Shown: piece by piece, positions 2,831 to 63,169 of the stretch
How positions within the stretch are numbered: position 1 is the stretch's first letter
Layout of the letters: every line of letters starts with the position of its first letter
Assembly (NCBI GenBank): GCA_009914755.4
Contig: CP068257.2
Span: forward strand, 24,672,001-24,736,000
Source of the DNA: the human T2T-CHM13v2.0 reference genome, Homo sapiens
Reading direction: 5' to 3'
Length of the DNA: 64,000 bases
Notes under the pieces: generated by a model
Told to the model about the DNA's origin: nothing
The model's input: the letters and a program-made list of their open reading frames with translations, nothing else
Databases searched by the model: none
Translations under genes and position numbers: made by a program

Positions 2831-3568
<738 letters not shown>

Positions 3569-5341: not shown

Positions 5342-5768
<427 letters not shown>

Positions 5769-6412: not shown

Positions 6413-7379
6413 CATCATTTCATTGTATTCTCATGGATACCGGGTAATATGATGCTATGAACAACTTGGCCAGTTTTCTGGGCAAAGCTGTCATGGTTTT
6501 TAAAATTGTTTTTATCTTTTTATCTTCGATTGCTACATTATTACCTCCATAAGAAATATTCTTTTTCCTTCCCCTTTTTAAGTCTTAAAAAATAATCACA
6601 ATACTTGCCTCATAAAAAAATTGGGAAACACAAATGTGCATAAAATGCTAAGTACCTATTAGGAATTATTGTTTTTAAGCCATTATGGTGACAATGAAAA
6701 ATCTTCAGAAATGATAATCAGTTGCAAAGAACATACCCTATGCTTTGATATCCTAATCTTAGACAGATGCTCCTGGTGCCCACGTTGCCTTTATTCAGCT
6801 CTCTTCTGATTTTAACCACAGTGTGGTAGACAGTTCGTGAAAGCTCATATTCTTCTCTTCCTGCCAGGATGTTGCTGGAAGCTCTTGCAGCTGTCTCTTA
6901 CATTCTTCCCCAGGGTCTTTTTCAACAGAGATCTCGCAGCTGGCTTGAATTTTGCTGTCTAAAGGTGCAGGGATGGGGAGGGATTAATGCCTAGAGGACA
7001 TCCTTCAACCAATGGGAGATGGGAGGTAGTGAAAAAATATTCCAATTTCCTATATTTCTGGTAGACAATTCTGGGAGGCATTCCATGTATGCTTCTCAGA
7101 GCTTCTGGCAGAGTCCCACTCTTGTTGCTTACAGCAGAAACCTCAGTAAAGCACCATATAATGTCTTTTCTCTCTTTGTGTCTGACTCTCCTCCCTTATT
7201 TCTGTTTCCTAGGAGCAGTTTGGAAATAAACTAACTGCAACCAAGTCTTTGTTCTAGGCTCTTCTCCGAGGGAAACCCTAACTACGATATCGTCCCTTTC
7301 CCTTTTTCTCCAACAATGCAGAGTTCTTTCCCCTTCCCTTGGAGAACACTCAGTTAATTAACTCAGCCATTGCATATTG

Positions 7380-7870
7380 AGGGTCAATCCTATGCCAGGC
7401 ACTGCTTTGTGGAGGATGCGAAGACAGACTCAGATTCTGGCCATCTTGGAGCTATATTCTAGTGGAGCAGGCAGAAAATGAGCACAATAAGTAAGCAAGA
7501 TGTTAGACTTCAGAAGTGCTAAGGGGAAGAAAGGAAGAAAGGTAGGAAATGTCTGGGGAAAGAGGTGCATTGCAATTTTAGATAGGATGGCCAGGAGAGG
7601 CTTTATTGAGAAGGTCTCTTTTGCGTAAATATCTGAAGAAGGTGAGCCACATCAAGATATGTCGGAAAAATATTCCATCTGAGGAAATGGCAAATGCCTG
7701 AGCCCTAAGGTAGGAGTACTTCTGGAACACTTAGGAATATTGAGAAGACCAGTGTGGATGAAGGGAGGTGAAGGAGAATGAGGTGCTATTGCCAGAGAGG
7801 AAGCAAGGTGATAGACAGATCACATAGGAACCTTAAGGTCTTTGGTATTTACCTTAAGTTTTAAAATTTA
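7380..7870. repeat. copy of an ancient mammalian interspersed repeat, family not assigned
   Basis: Diverged similarity to a very common old repeat (ccaggcactg...ggagct.a.attctagtgg...agaaggtgag...ccagtgtgg). Identity is low. This call rests on pattern memory only. Confidence 0.3.
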
Positions 7871-9102: not shown

Positions 9103-9477
9103 GTCATAACAAAATACCACAGACTGGATGGCTGAAACAACAGAAATTAATTTTCTTGCAGTTCTGATGGCTGAAAGTCCAAGTCAAGGTGCCAGCAGGG
9201 GTGATTTATTTGGAGGCCTCTCTCCTTGGCTTGCAGATGGCTGCTTTCTCAGTGTGTTTTCACATGCTCTTTCCTCTGTGTGTGCATATCCCTGGTGTCT
9301 TCATCATCCTATAAGGACACCAGTCATATTGGATTAGGGCCTCTCCCTTATTCCCTCATTTAACCTTCATATTACCCCTTTAGAGGCTCTATTCCCAATA
9401 CGGTCATATTCTAACATACTGGGGGATAGGGTGTCAACATACACATTTTTAGGGGGAACACAATTCAGTCTATAACA
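9103..9477 (-). mobile_element. ERVL-MaLR solo LTR, MLT1-like, minus orientation
   Basis: The reverse complement matches the characteristic MLT1 3' end (caccttgatcttggacttccagcctccagaactgtgagaaa-ataaattt-ctgttgtttaagccacccagtctgtggtattttgttatgaca). The element has TG..CA termini. Four or five paralogous copies occur in this window. Confidence 0.7.
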
Positions 9478-11300: not shown

Positions 11301-12616
11301 GAAAATCGCTCAAATGTACTACAGTGAACTTCCACTGTTAGAACTACAGTTGGATTTTTCTCTCCTAATACCTATTCCAGCCCCGTGTGGTAGGGAACCA
11401 GGAAACCAAATTCATATATCCTGCTCTCTGCTGATACAGATAGCTATCAAAAGGCCGTAAGTTGAACAAAATGCCTTAGCAAAATGAGAGCAGTGTTAAA
11501 TTGTTCTGTTTTAGAGTGGTGTGTATATCAGAAGTTGATTATCACAATAATTCTCCTTAATAAACAACAAACCTCAGTGGTTGATAACAATAAGCATCTA
11601 TTTAGCTTATGAGTCGACGGGATTCAGCTGATCAGGCCTGGGTTTGACTCTTCTCATGTGTTTACTGTCAGCTGTAGGTTCAGTAGGTGACTCTGCTGTC
11701 CTTGGGTGGGCCCTCTCACAAATCTAGGTGGCATCTAAGGTGGCCTTGGCGGAGATGACTGGGGCAACTCAGTTCTGATCCTTGAATCTCTCATCTTTCT
11801 CCTGGGACGAGAGGGGCAGCTTGGTCAAGTTCTTATGGCAGTAGCAGAGGGTAAGAGCAAGCAAGCTCCACCATGCAAATGTCTCAGGTCTCTGCTTGTG
11901 CCACACTTGTCAGTTGTCTCCTTGGGGCAACTCAGGTCATTCTAGCTCCAGAGCTCCCAACCAGTTGGCCAAGACTCACTGGACCTGCAACAGAGCTCAC
12001 CTATTCCCTCTGCCCAATTTTGCTTCTCCGAAAGCAAGTCCTATGGCTGAGTGCGGAATGAGAGAGCACCATTGAGCTATACGCACGTGGTATAGAGACA
12101 AGGAAGACTGACAAACTGGGACCATTATTACCTTTGATCTATCACAGGGTAACTTTTCTTATTTCTTTTTCTTCTGTATTTGTGTTTTATGATCTTTCTA
12201 CAACAAATACCTGTAGCTTGGTTCATAAAGAAAAGCTTCCAGGCAAGAGCAGATTGAAATAATCAAAAACTTAGGAAAAACTGCATAGTATACACACTTG
12301 GCTATCACATTGGCTAAAGTACTTAGTAATCTATTGAAATTTACCAAAGCAGCTGACTTGATGAATACTTGGGTTATTCTCAAACTTGGTTAAGTACCCC
12401 CTTTCCTTTTTCTATTCACTGTGGCTAGAGCTGATAAATGAATGCTGAAATGTATATTGCTCTTATAGACTTGAATGTACTAGCAGCATTCTTGCTGGGA
12501 TTAAGTGTTGCATGCTGTCCTGACAGAAACGAAACTCAATGACTTGTCTATTTCTGTAAGCTGAATACAGTGAGTTTGGAATGTTGTACAACTCTAAGAC
12601 TGTGCACCAAAATGCT

Positions 12617-13235
12617 CAGGACTGGTGTGTTCCCCGTTGCAAAAAGCTTACATTCAGGTGAAGGAGAAAGCAAAATAAATAAATAAATAATTAATTAGAT
12701 AGCTACAAATGGTGGTAACTTTGTGAAATAAATTAACAAGAGAGTAAGACAGAGAATGATAGGGGAAGGTACCTCTTTTAGATGGGTGATGTGGAAAGAC
12801 CTCTCTGGTGATGTAGCTCCTTTATTTTCTTATTTTTGCATAAAATTTTTAGAGTGTGAGGCATCATCATGATTTCAGAGACATGAGGCATGTAACTTGG
12901 GACAAATACATGACTGTATTTGGTTGAAGATGTTTGTCATTTTTGCATTGTGCCCTATGGCTAAAATGTTCTGATTTTGATCATGAAACAAAATTCACCA
13001 CAGTTATGGTTCAATTGTCAAGGAAGAAAGAAATACTACATCACCAGAGAGGTCTTTCCACATCACCCATCTAAAAGAGGTACCCTCCTCTATCATTCTC
13101 TATCTTACTCTCTTGTTAATTTCTTTCACAAAGTTACCACGATTTGTAGCTATTTAATTAATTAATTATTTATTTATTTTGCTTTCTCCTTCACCCGAAC
13201 GTAAGCTTCTTGCAGCGGGGAACACACTAGTCCTG
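12617..13235. repeat. unclassified inverted repeat with ~200-bp arms and a 219-bp spacer
   Basis: Arm A (12617-12816) and the reverse complement of arm B (13036-13235) align end to end with about 12 mismatches in 200 bp, roughly 94% identity. Weaker homology continues about 30 bp outward on each side. Each arm contains an (AAAT)n/(TAAT)n microsatellite. Several differences are CpG-to-TpG transitions. I do not recognise the arms as any known repeat family. Confidence 0.85.
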
Positions 13236-13635
13236 TTGATAGTGACACTCCTAGAGTCCAGCACAGTGCCTGTTTATTATATGAATGAAGATGCACCGTC
13301 ATTGAAATATTACACTTAGGAACCATATGTATTAATTACCCAATTCACCTATTTAAAAAACTCAATGGTTATAAAAGTAACAACACAGTTTTTTTCCTGC
13401 TAAAAATAGACACTTGCATGTCTGCTAGAGGCTCCGTTTAAAAATACTTTCAATCTACACTTGGTTAATTATAAATAATATTCACTCTTTAGTAGTGGTG
13501 GGGGTTGTATGATCAGAATCAGAAGTGCAGGTGATTCTAATACATTTATGAAGAAATAACTCTCTGGGATTCATGGTAATTGATGTACTGGCACGGTAAA
13601 CTTTCCAAGGAATGTTGATTCTGAAGAAAATCTGC

Positions 13636-14127: not shown

Positions 14128-15227
14128 TCTTTTTTCTTTTTTTTCTTTATATACTTTAAATTCTAGGGTACATGTGCACAACGTGCAGTTTTGTTACATA
14201 TGTATATATGTGCCATGTTGGTTCGCTGCACCCATTAACTTGTCATTTACATTAGGTATTTCTCCTAATGCTATCCCTCCCCCATCCCCCCACCCCATGA
14301 CAGGCCCTGGTGTGTGATGTTCCCCACCCTGTGTCCAAGTGTTCTCATTGTTTAATTTCCACCTATGAGTGAGAACATGTGGTGTTTGGTTTTCTGTCCT
14401 TGGGATAGTTTGCTGAGAATGATGGTTTCCAGCTTCATCCATGTCCCCACAAAGGACATGAACTCATCCTTTTTTATGGCTGCATAATATTCCATGGTGT
14501 ATATGTGCCACATTTTCTTAATCCAGTCTATCATTGATGGACATTTGGGTTGGTTCCAAGTCTTTGCTACTGTGAATAGTGCCACAATAATCATATGTGT
14601 GCATGTGTCTTTATAGTAGCATGATTTATAATCCTCTGGGTATACACCCAGTAATGGGATCACTGTGTCAAATGGTATTTCTAGTTCTAGATCCTTGAGG
14701 AATTGTCACACTGTCTTCCACAATGGTTGAACTAGTTTACAGTCCCACCAACAGTGTAAAAGTGTTCCTATTTCTCCACATCCTCTCTAGCACCTGCTGT
14801 TTCCTGACTTTTTAATGATCGCCATTCTAGCTGGTGTGAGATGCTATCTCATTGTGGTTTTGATTTTCATTTCTCTGATGACCAGTGATGATGAGCATTT
14901 TTTCATGTGTCTGTTGGCTGCACAAATGTCTTCTTTTGAAAAGTGTCTGTTCATATCCTTTGTCCACATTTTGAAGGGGTTGTTTGACTTTTTCTTGTAA
15001 ATTTGTTTAAGTTCTTTGTAGATTCTGGATAGTAGCCCTTTGTCAGATGGGTAGATTGCAAAAATTTTCTCCCATTCTGTAGGTCTCCTGTTCACTCTGA
15101 TGGTAGTTTCTTTTGCTGTGCAGAAGCTCTTTAGTTTAATTAGATCCGATTTATCAATTTTGGCTTTTGCTGCCATTGCTTTTGGTGTTTTAGTCATGAA
15201 GTCCTTGCCCATGCCTATGTCCTGGAC
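14128..15227 (-). mobile_element. L1PA-type LINE-1 3' portion (ORF2 C-terminus plus 3'UTR), 5'-truncated, minus orientation
   Basis: Poly-T at the left end followed by tatatactttaaattctagggtacatgtgcacaacgtgcagttttgttacatatgtatatatgtgccatg.... About 1.1 kb is colinear with the L1PA consensus. Confidence 0.95.
14844..15212 (-). pseudogene. L1 ORF2 C-terminal remnant (122-aa ORF)
   Basis: The track ORF reads [60 protein letters not shown]..., which is the L1 ORF2 C-terminal domain. It lies inside the truncated L1 above. Confidence 0.85.
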
Positions 15228-15534: not shown

Positions 15535-15887
15535 GAGCACAACAGAAATTTATTTTCTCACAGTTCTGGAGGCTGGAAATCTGAGATCAAAGTGTCTGTA
15601 GGTTGAGGGCCATAGAGGAAGGATCTGTCCCTGGCTTCTCTCGTTGACTTGTAAATGCCCTTTTCCCTGTGTGTCCTCATATCGTCTTTCTTCTGTATAT
15701 TTCTGTGTTCAAATTTCCCCTTCTTGTAAGAATATGAGTTGTATTGGATTAGGTCCCACCTAATGGCCTCATTTTGGCTTACATACTTCTTTAAAGACCC
15801 TGTCTCCAATATGGTTACATTCTCAGGTACTAGGGATTAAGACTTCAACATATGAATTTTGGGGGTCTCACAATTCAGCCCATAACA
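15535..15887 (-). mobile_element. MLT1-like MaLR LTR, truncated copy
   Basis: Paralogous to 9103-9477 from the motif aacagaaatttattttctcacagttctggaggctggaa onward. Ends in cataaca. Confidence 0.65.
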
Positions 15888-50932: not shown

Positions 50933-51078
50933 GCAGACAAAACTTTCTTCCGTGCACAAGATTATTAAAAATAGTGTATATAATTACCTTCAGGCTATGT
51001 GTTTGTGTCGCAGACAAAACTTTCTTCTGTGCACAAAATTATTAAAAATAGTGTATATAATTACCTTCAGGCTATGTG
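50933..51078 (+). repeat. tandem duplication, 2 copies of a 77-bp unit
   Basis: gcagacaaaactttcttccgtgcacaagattattaaaaatagtgtatataattaccttcaggctatgtg occurs at 50933-51001 and again at 51010-51078 with 2 mismatches. Confidence 0.9.
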
Positions 51079-57799: not shown

Positions 57800-58145
<346 letters not shown>

Positions 58146-58250: not shown

Positions 58251-58651
58251 TGTATTAGTCTGTTTTCATGCTGCTTCATAATTTATCCATGCTTCATAAA
58301 TTATCCATGACTGGATAATAATTTATCATGCTTCATAAATTATCCATGACTGGATAATTTATAAAGAAAAAGAGGTTTAATGGACCCACAGTTCCATGTG
58401 ACTGAGAAAGCCTCACAATCATGGTGAAAGGCACCTCTTCCACGGCAGGCAAGAGAGAATGAGAGCCAAGTGAAATGGGAAACCCCTTATAAAACCATCA
58501 GATCTTGTGAGACTTATTCATGAGAACTGTATGGGGGACACCACACCCATGATTCAGTTATCTCTCACTGGCTGTCTCCCACAACATGTGGGAATTATTG
58601 GAGCTACAGTTCAAGATGATATTTGGGTGGGGACACAGCCAAACCATATCA
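58251..58651 (-). mobile_element. THE1/MST-like MaLR solo LTR, minus orientation, with an internal 40-bp tandem duplication
   Basis: tgtattagtctgttttcatgctgct...ggataatttataaagaaaaagaggtttaatggacccacagttccatgtgactgagaaagcctcacaatcatggtgaaaggc...ggagctacagttcaagatgatatttgggtggggacacagccaaaccatatca. The unit catgcttcataaattatccatgactggataat is present twice (58287-58318 and 58327-58358). Confidence 0.8.
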
Positions 58652-59382: not shown

Positions 59383-60712
59383 TTTTTTTTAATTATACTT
59401 TAAGTTCTGGGGTACATGTGCAGAACGTGCAGTTTTGTTACATAGGTATACACGTGCCATGGTGGTTTGCTGCACCCATCAACCCGTTATCTACGTTAGG
59501 TATTTCTCCTAATGCTATCCCTCCCCTAGCTCCCCAGCCCCCACAGGCCCTGGTGTGTGATGTTCCCCTTCCTGTGTCCATGTGTTCTCATTGTTCAACT
59601 CCCACTTATAAGTGAGAACATGTGGGGTTTGGTTTTCTGATCTTGTGACAGTTTGCTGAGAATGATGGTTTCCAGCTTCATCCATGTCTCTGCAAAGGAT
59701 GTGAACTCATCCTTTTTCATGGCTGCATAGTATTCCATGGTGTATATGTGCCACATTTTCTTAATCCAGACTATCATTGATGAACATTCGGGTTGGTTCC
59801 AAGTCTTTGCTATTGTGAATAGTGCTGCAATAAACATATGTGTGCATGTGTCTTTATTGTAGAATAATATATAATCCTTTGGGTATATACCCAGTAATGG
59901 AATTGCTGGGGCAAATGGTATTTCTAGTTCTAGATCCTTGAAGAATTGCCACACTGTCTTCCACAATGGTTGAACTAATTTATATTCCCACCAACAGTGT
60001 AAAAGTGTTCCCATTTTTCCACAGCCTCTCCAGCATCTGTTGTTTCCTGACTTTTTAATGATCACCAATCTAACTGGCGTGAGATGGTATCTCATTATGG
60101 TTTTGATTTGCATTTCTCTAACGACCAGTGGTGATGAGCATTTTTTCATGTGTCTGTTGGCTGCATAAATGTCTTCTTTTGAGAAGCGTCTGTTCGTATC
60201 CTTTGCCCATTTTTTGATGGGGTTTTTGCTTTTTTCTTGTAAATTTGTTTAAGTTCTTTGTAGATTCTGGATATATTAGCCCTTTGTCAGATGGATAGAT
60301 TGCAAAAATTTTCTCCCATTCTGTAGGTTTTCTCTTCACTCTGATGATAGTTTCTTTTGCTGTGCGGAAGCTCTTTGGTTTAATTAGATCCCATTTGTCA
60401 ATTTTGGCTTTTGTTGCCATTGCTTTTGGGGTTTTAGTCATGAAGTCTTTGCCCATGCCTGTGTCCTGAATGATATTGCCCAGGTTTTCTTCTAGGATTT
60501 TTATGGTCCTAGGTCTTAGGTTTAAGTCTTTGATCCATCTTGAGTTGATTTTTGTATAAGGTGTAAGGAAGGGGTCCAGTTTCAGTTTTCTGCCTATGGC
60601 TAGCCAGTTTTCCCAACACCATTTATTAAATAGGGAATCTTTTCCCCATTGCCTGTGTGTGTCAGGCTTGTCAAAGATCAGATGGTGGTAGATCACACAT
60701 GCTTCTTTTGTC
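59383..60712 (-). mobile_element. L1PA-type LINE-1 3' portion (about 1.3 kb: ORF2 C-terminus plus 3'UTR), 5'-truncated, minus orientation
   Basis: A T8 tract followed by aattatactttaagttctggggtacatgtgcagaacgtgcagttttgttacataggtatacacgtgccatggtggtttgctgcacccatcaacc..., colinear with the L1PA consensus through ...catctgatctttgacaagcctga near 60712. Confidence 0.95.
59595..60149 (-). pseudogene. L1 ORF2 C-terminal remnant (184-aa open frame)
   Basis: [93 protein letters not shown]...[42 protein letters not shown] is the near-intact C-terminus of L1PA ORF2. Confidence 0.9.
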
Positions 60713-62781
60713 AACTTCAGATCTCTTGTTATATTCTTGGTGATGATGATGTCAGTTTTACTAATTACGTCAAATCTGAGGTTCCAAAGCAGCTTTAAGA
60801 GAGACTGATATCTATGTGTGACTGCTTCTCTACTTCTGCAATGGAACATTTCAAGTTGTTGTTTTAAGAAATTCCTAAAATAGAATTTTACCCTACTGAT
60901 TTATTTACCTCATTGAAGGTAGAACTCAATGGCTAGTTTTTTTTTCCCGGCATAAACATGCACACACAGTTAGATAACTTTATGACACTTTTTTTTTCAC
61001 TCAACAAAAAGTTACTGAACTTATGCTAGGCCCTTGGCCCTTGGCAAGATTCTGGGAATATAAATACAAATAAGACCTGGTGCTTGCCCTTAAAGAACTC
61101 ATTGTTTAGCAGAGGAAACAGACACTTAAATGGTTGACCATAATATGCAATAATAAGTGTTGTAAAGTATGAACAAAGTGCTAGTCATTAAGAGTAACAG
61201 CCGTAAAGCCATATGTAGTTTTAGCTATATATAGATATAGCTCTGAGACATGAATACACATTAAATTCTTTCAAAAAAAAATCCCAGGAGGCTGAACAAT
61301 GTTATACAATGATGCTTAACATTTTTTTTGGAACACATGCCCTCCACAAGGCACATATTAATTGTCTACACTCAACAGAATTCAAAATAAAATAGTTATA
61401 AAAATAGAACAATGAGAAAAAGAACAGAGAAGTCTCTGTAATTTTGCAATAGGTGGAGGTAAGATGAGGGTAACTAAAGAGACAGTGTTTTAGGTAGCCA
61501 TATGGGTAGAAACCTAGACAAAGGCAAGTGAAAGATAGAGACTATTGATCTTGGCAGGGAAGGTACAGTCATCGTGATGTCTGATGGTCTTGCCAAAAGC
61601 TACAATTTCATGGCTCAGTAGGATTAGTTGGGCAGGAGAGTTTGAAGATACATATATAAAGCTTTAGAAGAGAGGGAGTTATATATTTTTGAAGATAGTA
61701 GATAAGTAACATTAGGACATCTGAGCAGATTGTAACATTTTCTGTGGACTATTGAATTTTTCACTGTCTACATTTAGTGGATTTTTAGAGGACGGGGCAA
61801 AATATGTTATCACGTCTAATCCATAAATAAGATATGGACAATCCTTTGCAGAATATCAACCGTTGCTTCACATTGTCGTTGAAGACAACTGCATGAATAC
61901 TAGTCTTTGTTGCTAGCTGTGATGAATAATAGCTAAGAAAAATACAGAACCCCCAAAACACAGTCTCTGTGTTTCTTGACATCCATGATGAGCAGCATGA
62001 GAAAAGGTGGCATGAATGGCTGCTATAAGGGCTTCCTAGTTCTCATGCTATGTCCCACAAACTATGATTTTAAATTAAAGATTAATTTCTTTGGTTTTTG
62101 CATACCAGGAAAGTCACATTTTCCTCAGTATACAAATAGCCCTGTCCTAATCCTGTAAGTTTGGGAAAGAAAAGTTAAAGGGGGAGGTGGGAATGTGATA
62201 AGACAATTCATCCATTCATTCATTTATTCAACAAACATTCATTTTGGAAGGTTCAATGGCATGTAGGTCTCAATGGAGTCAAACATTTCTGGATGTAAAT
62301 AACTAGAGAAGGGGGTTGGTAATGATGGGAGATGGTGATTGGAAGAAAAGTGATTGTTGAAGTGAGATTGTGAGTGGAGTGTTGTTATTGGCAATCACAA
62401 GACCTAGGGCAGTGCCTTCTAGTATTTTTTTTTCTATTGTGGTGCATATAGAAAGTGAAAATATTTATATAGCATATCTGGCTGGGGGCTTTAGGTGCTC
62501 CCATCCTGCTCAGCATCTGTGAGGGGCCAAAGAGCTCAACACCTCATGGACATGAGTTGGAGAGTTTGCTTGGTGCTATGACCATGGGAGTGGATGGCTG
62601 GGCCAGAATGATGAACCAGGAACTGAGAGGCCAAGGTGTTGGAAAGCTTACACACATAGAAATCAATCACCAAGGATTAATGACAGAGGTCATGTAGGAG
62701 ACAGCAACAGGACTCAATCAAAAAATAAGATCTTCAAAGAGGGCTGCAGACAACAGCAACAAGGAAGGATTGCTGTCTGAT

Positions 62782-63169
62782 TGTATTAGTCTGCTGGGGC
62801 TGCCTTAACAAATACCACAGGCTAGGTGGCTTAAACAACAGACATTTATTTTCTCACAGTTCTGGAGTCTAGAAGTCCAAGATCTAGGTGTTGGCAGGGT
62901 TGGTTCCTTCTGGGACCTTTCTCCTTGACTTGTAGATGGCTGTCTTCTCCCCTTTTCTTCCCAGGATCTTTCCTCTGTGTATGTTTGTGTCCTAATCTCC
63001 TCTTCTTATAAGGACATGAGTAATATTGGAGTAAGGCCCACTCTAATCATCTCATTTAACCTTAACCACCTCTTTAAATATCCCATATCCAAATCACATT
63101 CTATGGTACTGGGAGTTAGGACTTCAGCATATGAATTTGAGGGTGGGGGACATGATTCAGTTTATAACA
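62782..63169 (-). mobile_element. MLT1-like MaLR solo LTR, minus orientation
   Basis: tgtattagtctgctggggctgccttaacaaataccacaggctaggtggcttaaacaacagacatttattttctcacagttctggagtctagaagtccaagatctaggtgttggcagggttggttcc...cagtttataaca. The reverse complement gives the MLT1 3'-end signature. Paralog of 9103-9477. Confidence 0.7.

What the first reader, a model, noticed from the sequence alone, without database searches (positions are those of the whole stretch)
12585..13268. Unclassified large inverted repeat (~200-bp arms at ~94% identity, 219-bp spacer) that may form a hairpin
Arm 12617-12816 and the reverse complement of 13036-13235 align across their full length with about 12 substitutions. Weaker homology extends about 30 bp outward on each side. 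Neither arm resembles Alu, L1, MaLR or any repeat I recognise. Both arms carry an (AAAT)n tract. I considered three explanations. First, a non-autonomous DNA transposon with unusually long terminal inverted repeats (TIRs), of which this may be the only full copy in the window. Second, an inverted segmental micro-duplication. Third, a long-hairpin locus that could be processed into small RNAs if transcribed, since perfect long hairpins are endo-siRNA or miRNA precursors in mammals. Long palindromes are also fragile or recombinogenic sites. This is the one sizeable structure in the window that no repeat annotation explains.
Basis: seen in the sequence. Interest (0 to 1): 0.6.

Follow-up and report, generated by a model that had tools for sequence, protein, structure and literature searches.

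The report
Inverted duplicate of an old L2 fragment
The inverted repeat is real, but both arms are pieces of an ancient LINE-2 (L2) retrotransposon, one arm being a later back-to-front copy of the other, so this is an ordinary small inverted duplication that shows no sign of function and is not a new transposon.

Summary
Arms 12617-12816 and 13036-13235 are 200 nt long with exactly 12 mismatches (94%) and a 219-nt spacer. Weaker homology extends the arms to 12591 and 13257. The claim that no known repeat explains the arms is wrong. That consensus also hits at least five other places in this Alu-rich primate window. The arms share 82 non-consensus bases and differ from each other at only 19. 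They are about 52% identical to another L2 copy in the window but 91% identical to each other. They are therefore copies of each other made long after the L2 inserted, not two separate insertions. The right arm runs on into the L2 3' tail (P = 0.0045) and the left arm does not, so the right arm is the parent and the left arm an inserted inverted copy. There is no target-site duplication, and the right end of the repeat lies inside a continuous L2 copy, so the long-TIR transposon idea fails. Substitutions look neutral: 9 transitions to 3 transversions, spread evenly over both arms, with no RNA-strand bias. No Rfam family matches. The most likely origin is a replication template switch, with arm divergence (6-9%) suggesting roughly 25-35 million years ago. 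Orthologues could not be obtained.

The parts
12591..12816 (-). Left arm: the inserted inverted copy of an L2 3'-end fragment. It corresponds to about positions 77-311 of the recalled 371-nt L2 3' consensus and reads as L2 on the minus strand.
   Evidence: Aligns to the reverse complement of 13036-13257 (blastn E = 9e-71). Matches the recalled L2 consensus at z = 19.0 against shuffles (blastn E = 1.7e-7). Its outer flank shows no L2 tail (P = 1.0).
12617..12816 (.). High-identity core of the left arm: 200 nt with 12 mismatches to its partner 13036-13235. The innermost 49 nt (12768-12816) are identical to the partner.
12604..12616 (.). Scrambled patch near the outer end of the left arm. Its partner is 13236-13244. 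It has 5 mismatches in 9 aligned columns plus a 4-nt indel.
12817..13035 (.). Spacer, which would form the hairpin loop. It is 219 nt, single-copy in the window, and has no significant similarity to L2.
   Evidence: nhmmer finds only the self-hit. Against L2, z = -0.4 on one strand and 2.2 on the other. One weak, non-collinear resemblance of 12872-12902 (reverse complement) to L2 positions 42-73 gives P = 0.035 uncorrected.
13036..13257 (+). Right arm: part of the parental L2 3'-end fragment, in plus orientation.
   Evidence: z = 16.2 against the recalled L2 consensus. See also the multiple alignment.
13258..13294 (+). Continuation of the parental L2 copy beyond the repeat boundary to the L2 3' terminus (...AGCACAGTGCCTG...TATGAATGAAGATG). 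It is not duplicated in the left arm.
   Evidence: A 12-of-13 match to L2 positions 312-325. Semi-global alignment to L2 positions 296-371 gives P = 0.0045 against flank-only shuffles.

Best explanation
This is a small local inverted duplication of sequence that was already an old, decayed LINE-2 (L2) 3'-end fragment in a primate genome. The parental L2 fragment is on the plus strand from about 13036 to about 13294. A 222-226-nt internal piece of it (13036-13257) was copied in reverse-complement orientation and now sits 219 bp upstream, at 12591-12816. The most likely mechanism is a replication template switch or fold-back repair event, equivalent to type 1-4-3-2 of the four-point model. In that model the nascent strand leaves its template at about 12590, copies the opposite strand from 13257 back to 13036, and returns at about 12817. 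Since the event, both copies have drifted neutrally. Arm divergence is 6.3% (Jukes-Cantor) in the core and 6.9-9.1% overall. That is about the same as human versus Old World monkey divergence, so the event is provisionally dated to about 25-35 million years ago. The structure could fold into a roughly 200-bp hairpin if transcribed, making it one of millions of repeat-derived potential dsRNAs, but I see no sign of function. What is shown: the repeat exists, both arms are homologous to L2, the arms share derived states, there is no TSD, and only the right arm continues into the L2 tail. What is inferred: the switching mechanism, the date and the neutrality.
For: The window is primate, with 49 Alu hits. 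Both arms match the recalled L2 3' consensus: blastn E = 1.7e-7 and z = 16.2 and 19.0 against 300 shuffles. The same consensus hits other sites in the window, including 7354-7646 at E = 2e-26, so it represents a real dispersed family. In 221 comparable columns the arms share 82 non-consensus bases and differ from each other at 19. Arm-to-consensus identity is 57-58%, arm to the other L2 copy is about 52%, and arm to arm is 91.4%. The right outer flank continues into the L2 tail (P = 0.0045) while the left does not (P = 1.0). No direct repeat of 5 nt or more flanks either arm alone, and the only shared word in the flanks of the whole structure is a single non-adjacent 6-mer, as expected by chance. 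There is no larger palindrome around the pair. Differences are 9 transitions to 3 transversions. When polarised on the consensus, 9 derived changes fall on the left arm and 6 on the right, which is symmetric. G-U-compatible transitions number 4 on the plus-strand RNA and 5 on the minus-strand RNA. For contrast, another non-Alu inverted pair in the window (26516-26653 / 27212-27349), made of two copies of a six-copy repeat, is only 72% identical, which is what two independent old insertions look like. The four-point template-switch model includes an event type that creates exactly this kind of inverted repeat (PMC5453318).
Against: Direct copy-to-copy searches do not link the arms to other L2 copies in the window, though that is expected at about 52% identity. 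No microhomology is visible at either junction, although 6-9% later divergence could have erased 1-3 nt. Documented short template-switch events are usually tens of bp (PMC5453318), so 226 nt is long for that class. The mismatch density rises toward the outer ends (5, 3, 3 and 1 per 50 nt; P = 0.076), and the outer patch is scrambled. A single clean event followed by uniform drift does not predict this pattern. The date ignores possible gene conversion. No orthologous sequence could be retrieved.
Confidence: 0.75

Rival explanations
1. This is an ancient inverted pair of L2 sequence, formed either by two insertions or by an old duplication, dating from before the primate radiation. The inner roughly 200 bp have been kept similar by repeated arm-to-arm gene conversion or by template-switch homogenisation, as happens in larger palindromes.
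For: Identity declines from the centre outward: 0 mismatches in the inner 49 nt, 5 in the outer 50 nt, and a scrambled outer patch. There is a weak L2-like stretch in the spacer next to the left arm (12872-12902, P = 0.035). Template switching is reported to homogenise pre-existing imperfect inverted repeats (PMC5453318; PMC8604942 abstract).
Against: The gradient is not significant (P = 0.076). The left outer flank has no L2 tail at all (P = 1.0), and the spacer match is non-collinear and does not survive correction for four tests. The inner boundaries of both arms coincide to the base, which is unlikely for two independently truncated insertions. The longest perfect stretch is 49 bp, which from my own knowledge is well below the roughly 130-230 bp usually needed for efficient recombination in mammalian cells.
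Confidence: 0.1
2. This is a non-autonomous DNA transposon (MITE-like or MULE-like) with roughly 200-bp terminal inverted repeats.
For: The architecture fits: long inverted termini around a short unique core.
Against: No TSD of any length from 5 nt abuts the ends, and there is no TA or TTAA. The right end of the repeat is internal to an L2 copy that continues for about 37 nt to its own 3' tail. The arms are L2 sequence carrying 82 shared copy-specific changes. No other copy or fragment of the arms or spacer exists in the 64-kb window.
Confidence: 0.03
3. This is a functional hairpin RNA locus, such as an endo-siRNA or miRNA precursor, or a regulated ADAR/MDA5 dsRNA substrate, and its pairing is maintained by selection.
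For: It predicts a very stable hairpin on either strand: -382 and -391 kcal/mol, 94% Watson-Crick pairs, and 49 contiguous pairs. That is a higher paired fraction and a much shorter loop than the median edited human dsRNA, which has 84.7% pairing, 31 contiguous bp and a loop of about 2 kb (PMC11838218). L2-derived miRNAs exist (PMC3742188). A published survey reports that 7.8% of human intergenic inverted duplicates are expressed (PMC5398296).
Against: No Rfam family matches at gathering score anywhere in the window, and there are only chance-level hits in the region. Transitions preserve wobble pairing equally on both strands (4 versus 5), and 7-8 true mismatches remain. The 9:3 transition-to-transversion ratio and the symmetric drift look neutral. 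There is no CpG island or other promoter signal in the window. Expression could not be tested.
Confidence: 0.07
4. These are two independent L2 insertions that happen to lie in opposite orientation, with no later exchange between them.
For: Both arms are L2.
Against: The arms are 91-94% identical to each other but only 57-58% identical to the consensus and about 52% identical to another L2 copy. They share 82 non-consensus states. Their inner boundaries coincide exactly. From established knowledge, L2 activity predates the eutherian radiation, so independent copies could not be this similar.
Confidence: 0.02

Closest known systems
Inverted duplicates of the human genome, as catalogued genome-wide (Chen et al. 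2017, PMC5398296; Warburton et al. 2004)
   Same: It has two reverse-complementary arms separated by a spacer under 1 kb, it overlaps an annotated repeat class, and it is predicted to fold into a stable hairpin.
   Different: The arms are far longer than typical. The 80th percentile of human arm length in that catalogue is 36 nt, so this one falls in the longest class. It is much smaller, and its arms more divergent, than the palindromes with arms over 8 kb that are thought to be maintained by gene conversion.
Template-switch mutations under the four-point model, type 1-4-3-2 / 3-2-1-4 (Loytynoja and Goldman 2017, PMC5453318), and the hairpins and de novo miRNAs they create (PMC8794818, PMC10710096)
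   Same: A stretch of sequence is the reverse complement of a nearby stretch and is inserted a short distance away. This creates a new inverted repeat and a potential hairpin in a single event.
   Different: The copied fragment is about 226 nt, whereas the short-range events described in that work span tens of bp. No outgroup is available here to show the ancestral state, and no junction microhomology is visible.
Inverted Alu pairs (IR-Alus) as the main source of human dsRNA, ADAR editing and inverted-repeat fragility
   Same: Two retroelement-derived sequences in opposite orientation can form a duplex of 200-300 bp. The energy is in the same range as the median for edited dsRNAs (about -410 kcal/mol).
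   Different: IR-Alus arise from two separate insertions and pair at about 75-86% in this window. This pair arose by duplication of a single old L2 copy and pairs at 94%, with a loop of only 219 nt. In yeast, lowering identity from 100% to 94% reduces rearrangement about 15-fold, and lengthening the spacer from 12 to 200 bp reduces it about 20-fold (PMC10164571). The locus should therefore be only weakly fragile.
L2-derived miRNA hairpins (Smalheiser and Torvik 2005, cited in PMC3742188)
   Same: A hairpin built from LINE-2 sequence.
   Different: Those are short, conserved pre-miRNA stems. This is a 200-bp stem with no Rfam match and no sign of constraint.

Membership tests
LINE-2 (L2) 3'-end fragment | Significant sequence similarity to the L2 3'-end consensus | tested here: met
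   blastn E = 1.7e-7 for the left arm. Local alignment gives z = 16.2 (right arm) and 19.0 (left arm) against shuffles. See also the alignment.
LINE-2 (L2) 3'-end fragment | The consensus represents a dispersed, multi-copy, ancient family | tested here: met
   The same consensus hits six other sites in the window at 61-90% identity, the best being 7354-7646 at E = 2e-26.
LINE-2 (L2) 3'-end fragment | RepeatMasker/Dfam call of L2 on both arms | not testable with these tools
   No repeat library is available.
Non-autonomous DNA transposon with long TIRs | Target-site duplication immediately flanking the inverted termini | tested here: not met
   No shared word of 5 nt or more abuts the ends. The only shared 6-mer (ACAGTG) lies 19 nt from one end and 5 nt from the other. 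There is no TA or TTAA.
Non-autonomous DNA transposon with long TIRs | The ends of the inverted repeat are the ends of the mobile unit | tested here: not met
   The right end lies inside an L2 copy that continues to its 3' tail.
Non-autonomous DNA transposon with long TIRs | Multiple dispersed copies of the whole unit | tested here: inconclusive
   There are none in the 64-kb window. The whole genome was not searchable, and exact-word scans of three public collections found nothing.
Template-switch inverted duplication (four-point model, type 1-4-3-2) | An inserted fragment equals the reverse complement of nearby sequence | tested here: met
   12591-12816 is the reverse complement of 13036-13257 at 91.4% identity. 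Only the right copy is embedded in a longer L2.
Template-switch inverted duplication (four-point model, type 1-4-3-2) | Ancestral state without the inverted copy in an outgroup | not testable with these tools
   No primate or mammalian genomes are available, and the ORF look-ups returned nothing.
Template-switch inverted duplication (four-point model, type 1-4-3-2) | Microhomology at the switch points | tested here: inconclusive
   None is visible at 12590/12591 or 12816/12817, but later divergence of 6-9% could hide 1-3 nt.
miRNA / hairpin-RNA (endo-siRNA) gene | Match to a described RNA family | tested here: not met
   Rfam 15 gives no hit at gathering score in the window. In the region there are only sub-threshold chance hits, the best being a plant MIR2646 model at 18 bits against a gathering score of 245.
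miRNA / hairpin-RNA (endo-siRNA) gene | Substitutions preserve pairing on the transcribed strand | tested here: not met
   4 G-U-compatible changes on the plus strand and 5 on the minus strand, with 8 and 7 true mismatches respectively.
miRNA / hairpin-RNA (endo-siRNA) gene | Small-RNA reads or transcription from the locus | not testable with these tools
   No expression data are available.
Palindrome maintained by arm-to-arm gene conversion | Arm identity much higher than the age of the structure allows (needs orthologues) | not testable with these tools
   Only indirect evidence is available: the outward identity gradient gives P = 0.076, and the longest perfect tract is 49 bp.

The most novel reading that the evidence does not exclude
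A single template-switch event in an anthropoid ancestor turned a dead L2 fragment into a primate-specific RNA hairpin of about 200 bp and 94% pairing with a short loop. If the locus is transcribed, this hairpin could act as a source of endo-siRNAs or as an unusually potent non-Alu ADAR/MDA5 substrate. That would be a large-scale example of de novo hairpin birth by template switching.
Probability: 0.06. Interest if true: 0.5.

Novelty: already known. Interest (0 to 1): 0.15.

Why it matters
It matters little on its own. The locus illustrates how one local inverted duplication can make a long, near-perfect hairpin out of old retrotransposon sequence, a route to potential dsRNA that differs from the usual pair of independent Alu insertions. 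Such loci have already been catalogued genome-wide by the million. This one shows neutral-looking drift, matches no known RNA family, and sits in a window without promoter-like CpG islands. Its practical value is as a caution. A repeat pair that looks unclassified can be an ancient repeat too decayed to recognise by eye, and high arm-to-arm identity then reflects a later duplication and not a new mobile element.

Tried and rejected
1. Rfam at gathering threshold on the whole window, and at E <= 10 on 12300-13600, gave nothing meaningful.
2. Exact 23-mer scans of metagenome, prokaryotic-genome and viral collections for host-contamination copies or orthologues gave zero hits.
3. Five exact ORF look-ups in the assembly index, covering ORFs that overlap the repeat plus nearby 122-aa and 289-aa ORFs, found none on record. 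I concluded that the collection does not index this genome, so I did not spend the expensive search for homologous proteins or representative searches.
4. nhmmer copy-to-copy searches to link the arms to other L2 copies in the window without using a consensus gave no link, as expected at about 52% identity.
5. A full-text search for strings from the L2 consensus, to confirm its name independently, gave no hits.
6. Pfam on the long ORFs of the window found no families, so their L1 identity rests on my recognition and on their being multi-copy.
7. A search for a larger palindrome around the pair found none.
8. TSD and microhomology searches at all four boundaries found none.
9. A test for L2 continuing into the spacer was not significant on the right side and marginal and non-collinear on the left.
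10. I rejected an assembly fold-back artefact because the arms differ at 6-9% of positions. I rejected L1-style twin priming because that process inverts a different part of the element and cannot explain 82 shared post-insertion changes.

Full report
**Observation.** The repeat finder gives arms 12617-12816 and 13036-13235, 200 nt, 94% complementary, 219 nt apart. A local alignment of the left region against the reverse complement of the right region finds 12 mismatches in that core, 9 transitions and 3 transversions. It also extends the homology to 12591 on the left and 13257 on the right. The extension contains a short scrambled patch (12604-12616 against 13236-13244) with 5 mismatches in 9 columns and a 4-nt indel. 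Over all 222 aligned columns identity is 91.4%. The innermost 49 bp are identical. The inner boundaries are sharp and coincide to the base. Chance is excluded: blastn E = 9e-71 and nhmmer E = 5.6e-49. Folded as RNA, 12585-13268 gives one long hairpin of -382 kcal/mol on the plus strand (z = -52 against shuffles) and -391 kcal/mol on the minus strand. An assembly fold-back artefact would give identical arms and is excluded by the 6-9% divergence.

**Context.** The window is primate DNA. A recalled Alu consensus gives 49 hits, many full-length at 84-92% identity. GC content is 33-43%. There is no CpG-island-like 500-bp window, no tRNA and no Rfam family at gathering score. All ORFs of 110 aa or more look like retroelement remnants. 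Pfam names none of them, so that reading rests on my own recognition and on their repetition within the window. Other inverted pairs within 3 kb and with arms of at least 120 nt are Alu pairs at 75-86%, plus one pair of a six-copy repeat at 72%. The pair under study is the best matched, and no non-Alu pair comes close to its identity. No larger palindrome surrounds it.

**What the arms are.** By eye the right arm resembled the 3' end of LINE-2 (L2). It hits the left arm at E = 1.7e-7 and six other places in the window, the best being 7354-7646 at E = 2e-26 over 325 nt. It is therefore a genuine consensus of a dispersed old family. Against 300 shuffles, the right arm scores z = 16.2 and the left arm z = 19.0. 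The arms cover roughly consensus positions 77-311. The name L2 remains my own knowledge. No repeat library was available, and the paper library does not contain the consensus string. Direct nhmmer comparison between individual copies does not bridge them, as expected at about 52% identity.

**Copies of each other, not two insertions.** In 221 columns where the consensus and both arms have a base, the arms agree with each other and with the consensus at 120 positions. They agree with each other but differ from the consensus at 82 positions, and differ from each other at only 19. Identity is 57-58% to the consensus, about 52% to the other L2 copy and 91.4% between the arms. From established knowledge, L2 was active before the eutherian radiation, so two independent insertions could not be this similar. 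The six-copy repeat pair at 26516/27212, at 72%, shows what independent old insertions look like in this same window. The duplication therefore post-dates most of the decay of the L2 copy.

**Polarity.** Beyond 13257, the right-hand sequence carries on into the L2 tail. AGCACAGTGCCTG matches consensus positions 312-325 at 12 of 13, and ...TATGAATGAAGATG matches the terminal (TGAA)n. A semi-global alignment to consensus positions 296-371 gives P = 0.0045 against shuffles of the flank alone. The left arm's outer flank gives P = 1.0. So the right arm is an internal part of a longer parental L2 fragment (about 13036-13294), and the left arm is a partial inverted copy of it. On the inner side neither flank is convincingly L2. 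The right gives P = 0.34. The left gives P = 0.035 for a non-collinear match of 12872-12902, which does not survive correction for four tests. I leave that point unresolved.

**Transposon hypothesis.** No direct repeat of 5 nt or more flanks either arm alone. For the whole structure, the only shared word is one 6-mer lying 19 and 5 nt away from the two ends, which is the chance expectation. No TA or TTAA abuts the ends. The right terminus is internal to an L2 copy. No other copy of the arm or the spacer exists in the window. Two defining features of a TIR element were tested and not met.

**Hairpin-RNA hypothesis.** The structure is impressive: 188 of 200 Watson-Crick pairs and 49 contiguous. 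For comparison, median edited human dsRNAs have 84.7% pairing, 31 contiguous bp and a loop of about 2 kb (PMC11838218). Nothing suggests selection, however. Of the nine transitions, four are wobble-compatible on the plus-strand RNA and five on the minus strand. The transition-to-transversion ratio of 9:3 is ordinary. Polarising the 19 differences on the consensus gives 9 derived changes on the left arm, 6 on the right and 4 undecided, which is symmetric drift. Rfam offers only sub-threshold chance hits. Expression could not be tested.

**Origin and age.** The structure is a fragment equal to the reverse complement of sequence 219 bp away, inserted without a TSD. That is what the four-point template-switch model calls type 1-4-3-2 / 3-2-1-4, an event type that creates inverted repeats and hairpins (PMC5453318; see also PMC8794818 and PMC10710096). 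At 226 nt it is long for that class, and no junction microhomology is visible, so the mechanism is an inference. I give it about even odds within the broader and well-supported claim of a post-insertional inverted duplication. Jukes-Cantor distance between the arms is 0.0625 for the core, 0.069 without the scrambled patch and 0.091 overall. From my own knowledge, human-macaque divergence is about 6.5%. The comparison gives a provisional date near the catarrhine ancestor, roughly 25-35 million years ago. The date would be older if gene conversion has acted, and younger if the copying itself was error-prone. Mismatch density rises outward (5, 3, 3 and 1 per 50 nt; P = 0.076). This is the only hint of conversion or a two-step history, and it is not significant.

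**Stability.** In yeast, lowering inverted-repeat identity from 100% to 94% reduces gross rearrangements about 15-fold. Lengthening the spacer from 12 to 200 bp reduces them about 20-fold (PMC10164571). A 94% repeat with a 219-bp spacer should therefore be only weakly fragile, which fits its apparent long persistence.

**Comparison with what is known, and verdict.** Inverted duplicates have been catalogued genome-wide in human by the million. Most have short arms, with an 80th percentile of 36 nt, so this one is in the longest class but is not a new kind (PMC5398296). Genome-wide dsRNA prediction likewise lists over five million candidate structures, more than 90% of them repeat-derived (PMC11838218). 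The finding is real and more than a coincidence of two insertions. It is still an ordinary, apparently neutral inverted micro-duplication of an old L2 fragment. The orthologue comparison that would settle its age and polarity could not be run here.

Noticed in passing
window 12872-12902 (minus strand), inside the spacer: A short stretch resembles L2 consensus positions 42-73 (GTCTCTG...AAAT). It lies about 55 nt from the left arm and not directly next to it. P = 0.035 uncorrected. If the match is real, an older minus-strand L2 remnant may have pre-existed at the insertion site.
   Followed up: partly
window 26516-26653 and 27212-27349: A non-Alu inverted pair, 138 nt, 72% complementary, with a 558-nt spacer. 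The arm sequence has six copies in the window, and I recognise it as L1 3' region. It looks like two independent old insertions and makes a useful contrast with the 94% pair.
   Followed up: partly
window 3185-3487 and 5342-5644: An inverted pair of full-length Alus, 303 nt, 86% complementary, 1854 nt apart. This is the typical kind of dsRNA-forming repeat pair.
   Followed up: no
window 20669-21274, including 21066-21113: An inverted Alu pair (185 nt, 75%, 236-nt spacer). A perfect (TTTA)12 microsatellite lies at the start of the right-hand Alu, overlapping its first 24 nt.
   Followed up: no
window 50933-51078: A tandem duplication of a 77-bp unit, 1.9 copies, 97% identical. It appears to be a young local direct duplication in unique-looking sequence.
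   Followed up: no
window 58272-58362: A tandem array with nested 18-bp and 39-bp periods (97% at period 39), lying just after an Alu at 57858-58145.
   Followed up: no
window 9137-9477, 15539-15887, 62835-63169, 38926-39127, 43807-44131: An old dispersed repeat of about 340 bp, 64-70% identical between copies, with five copies in the window. I did not identify the family.
   Followed up: no
window 44715-45584, 59595-60849, 14844-15212, 25978-26466: Long ORFs (122-289 aa) that share the motif GMGKDFM.KTPKA...[19 protein letters not shown] recognise them as L1 ORF2 C-terminal remnants, but Pfam returned no family at E <= 0.01.
   Followed up: partly
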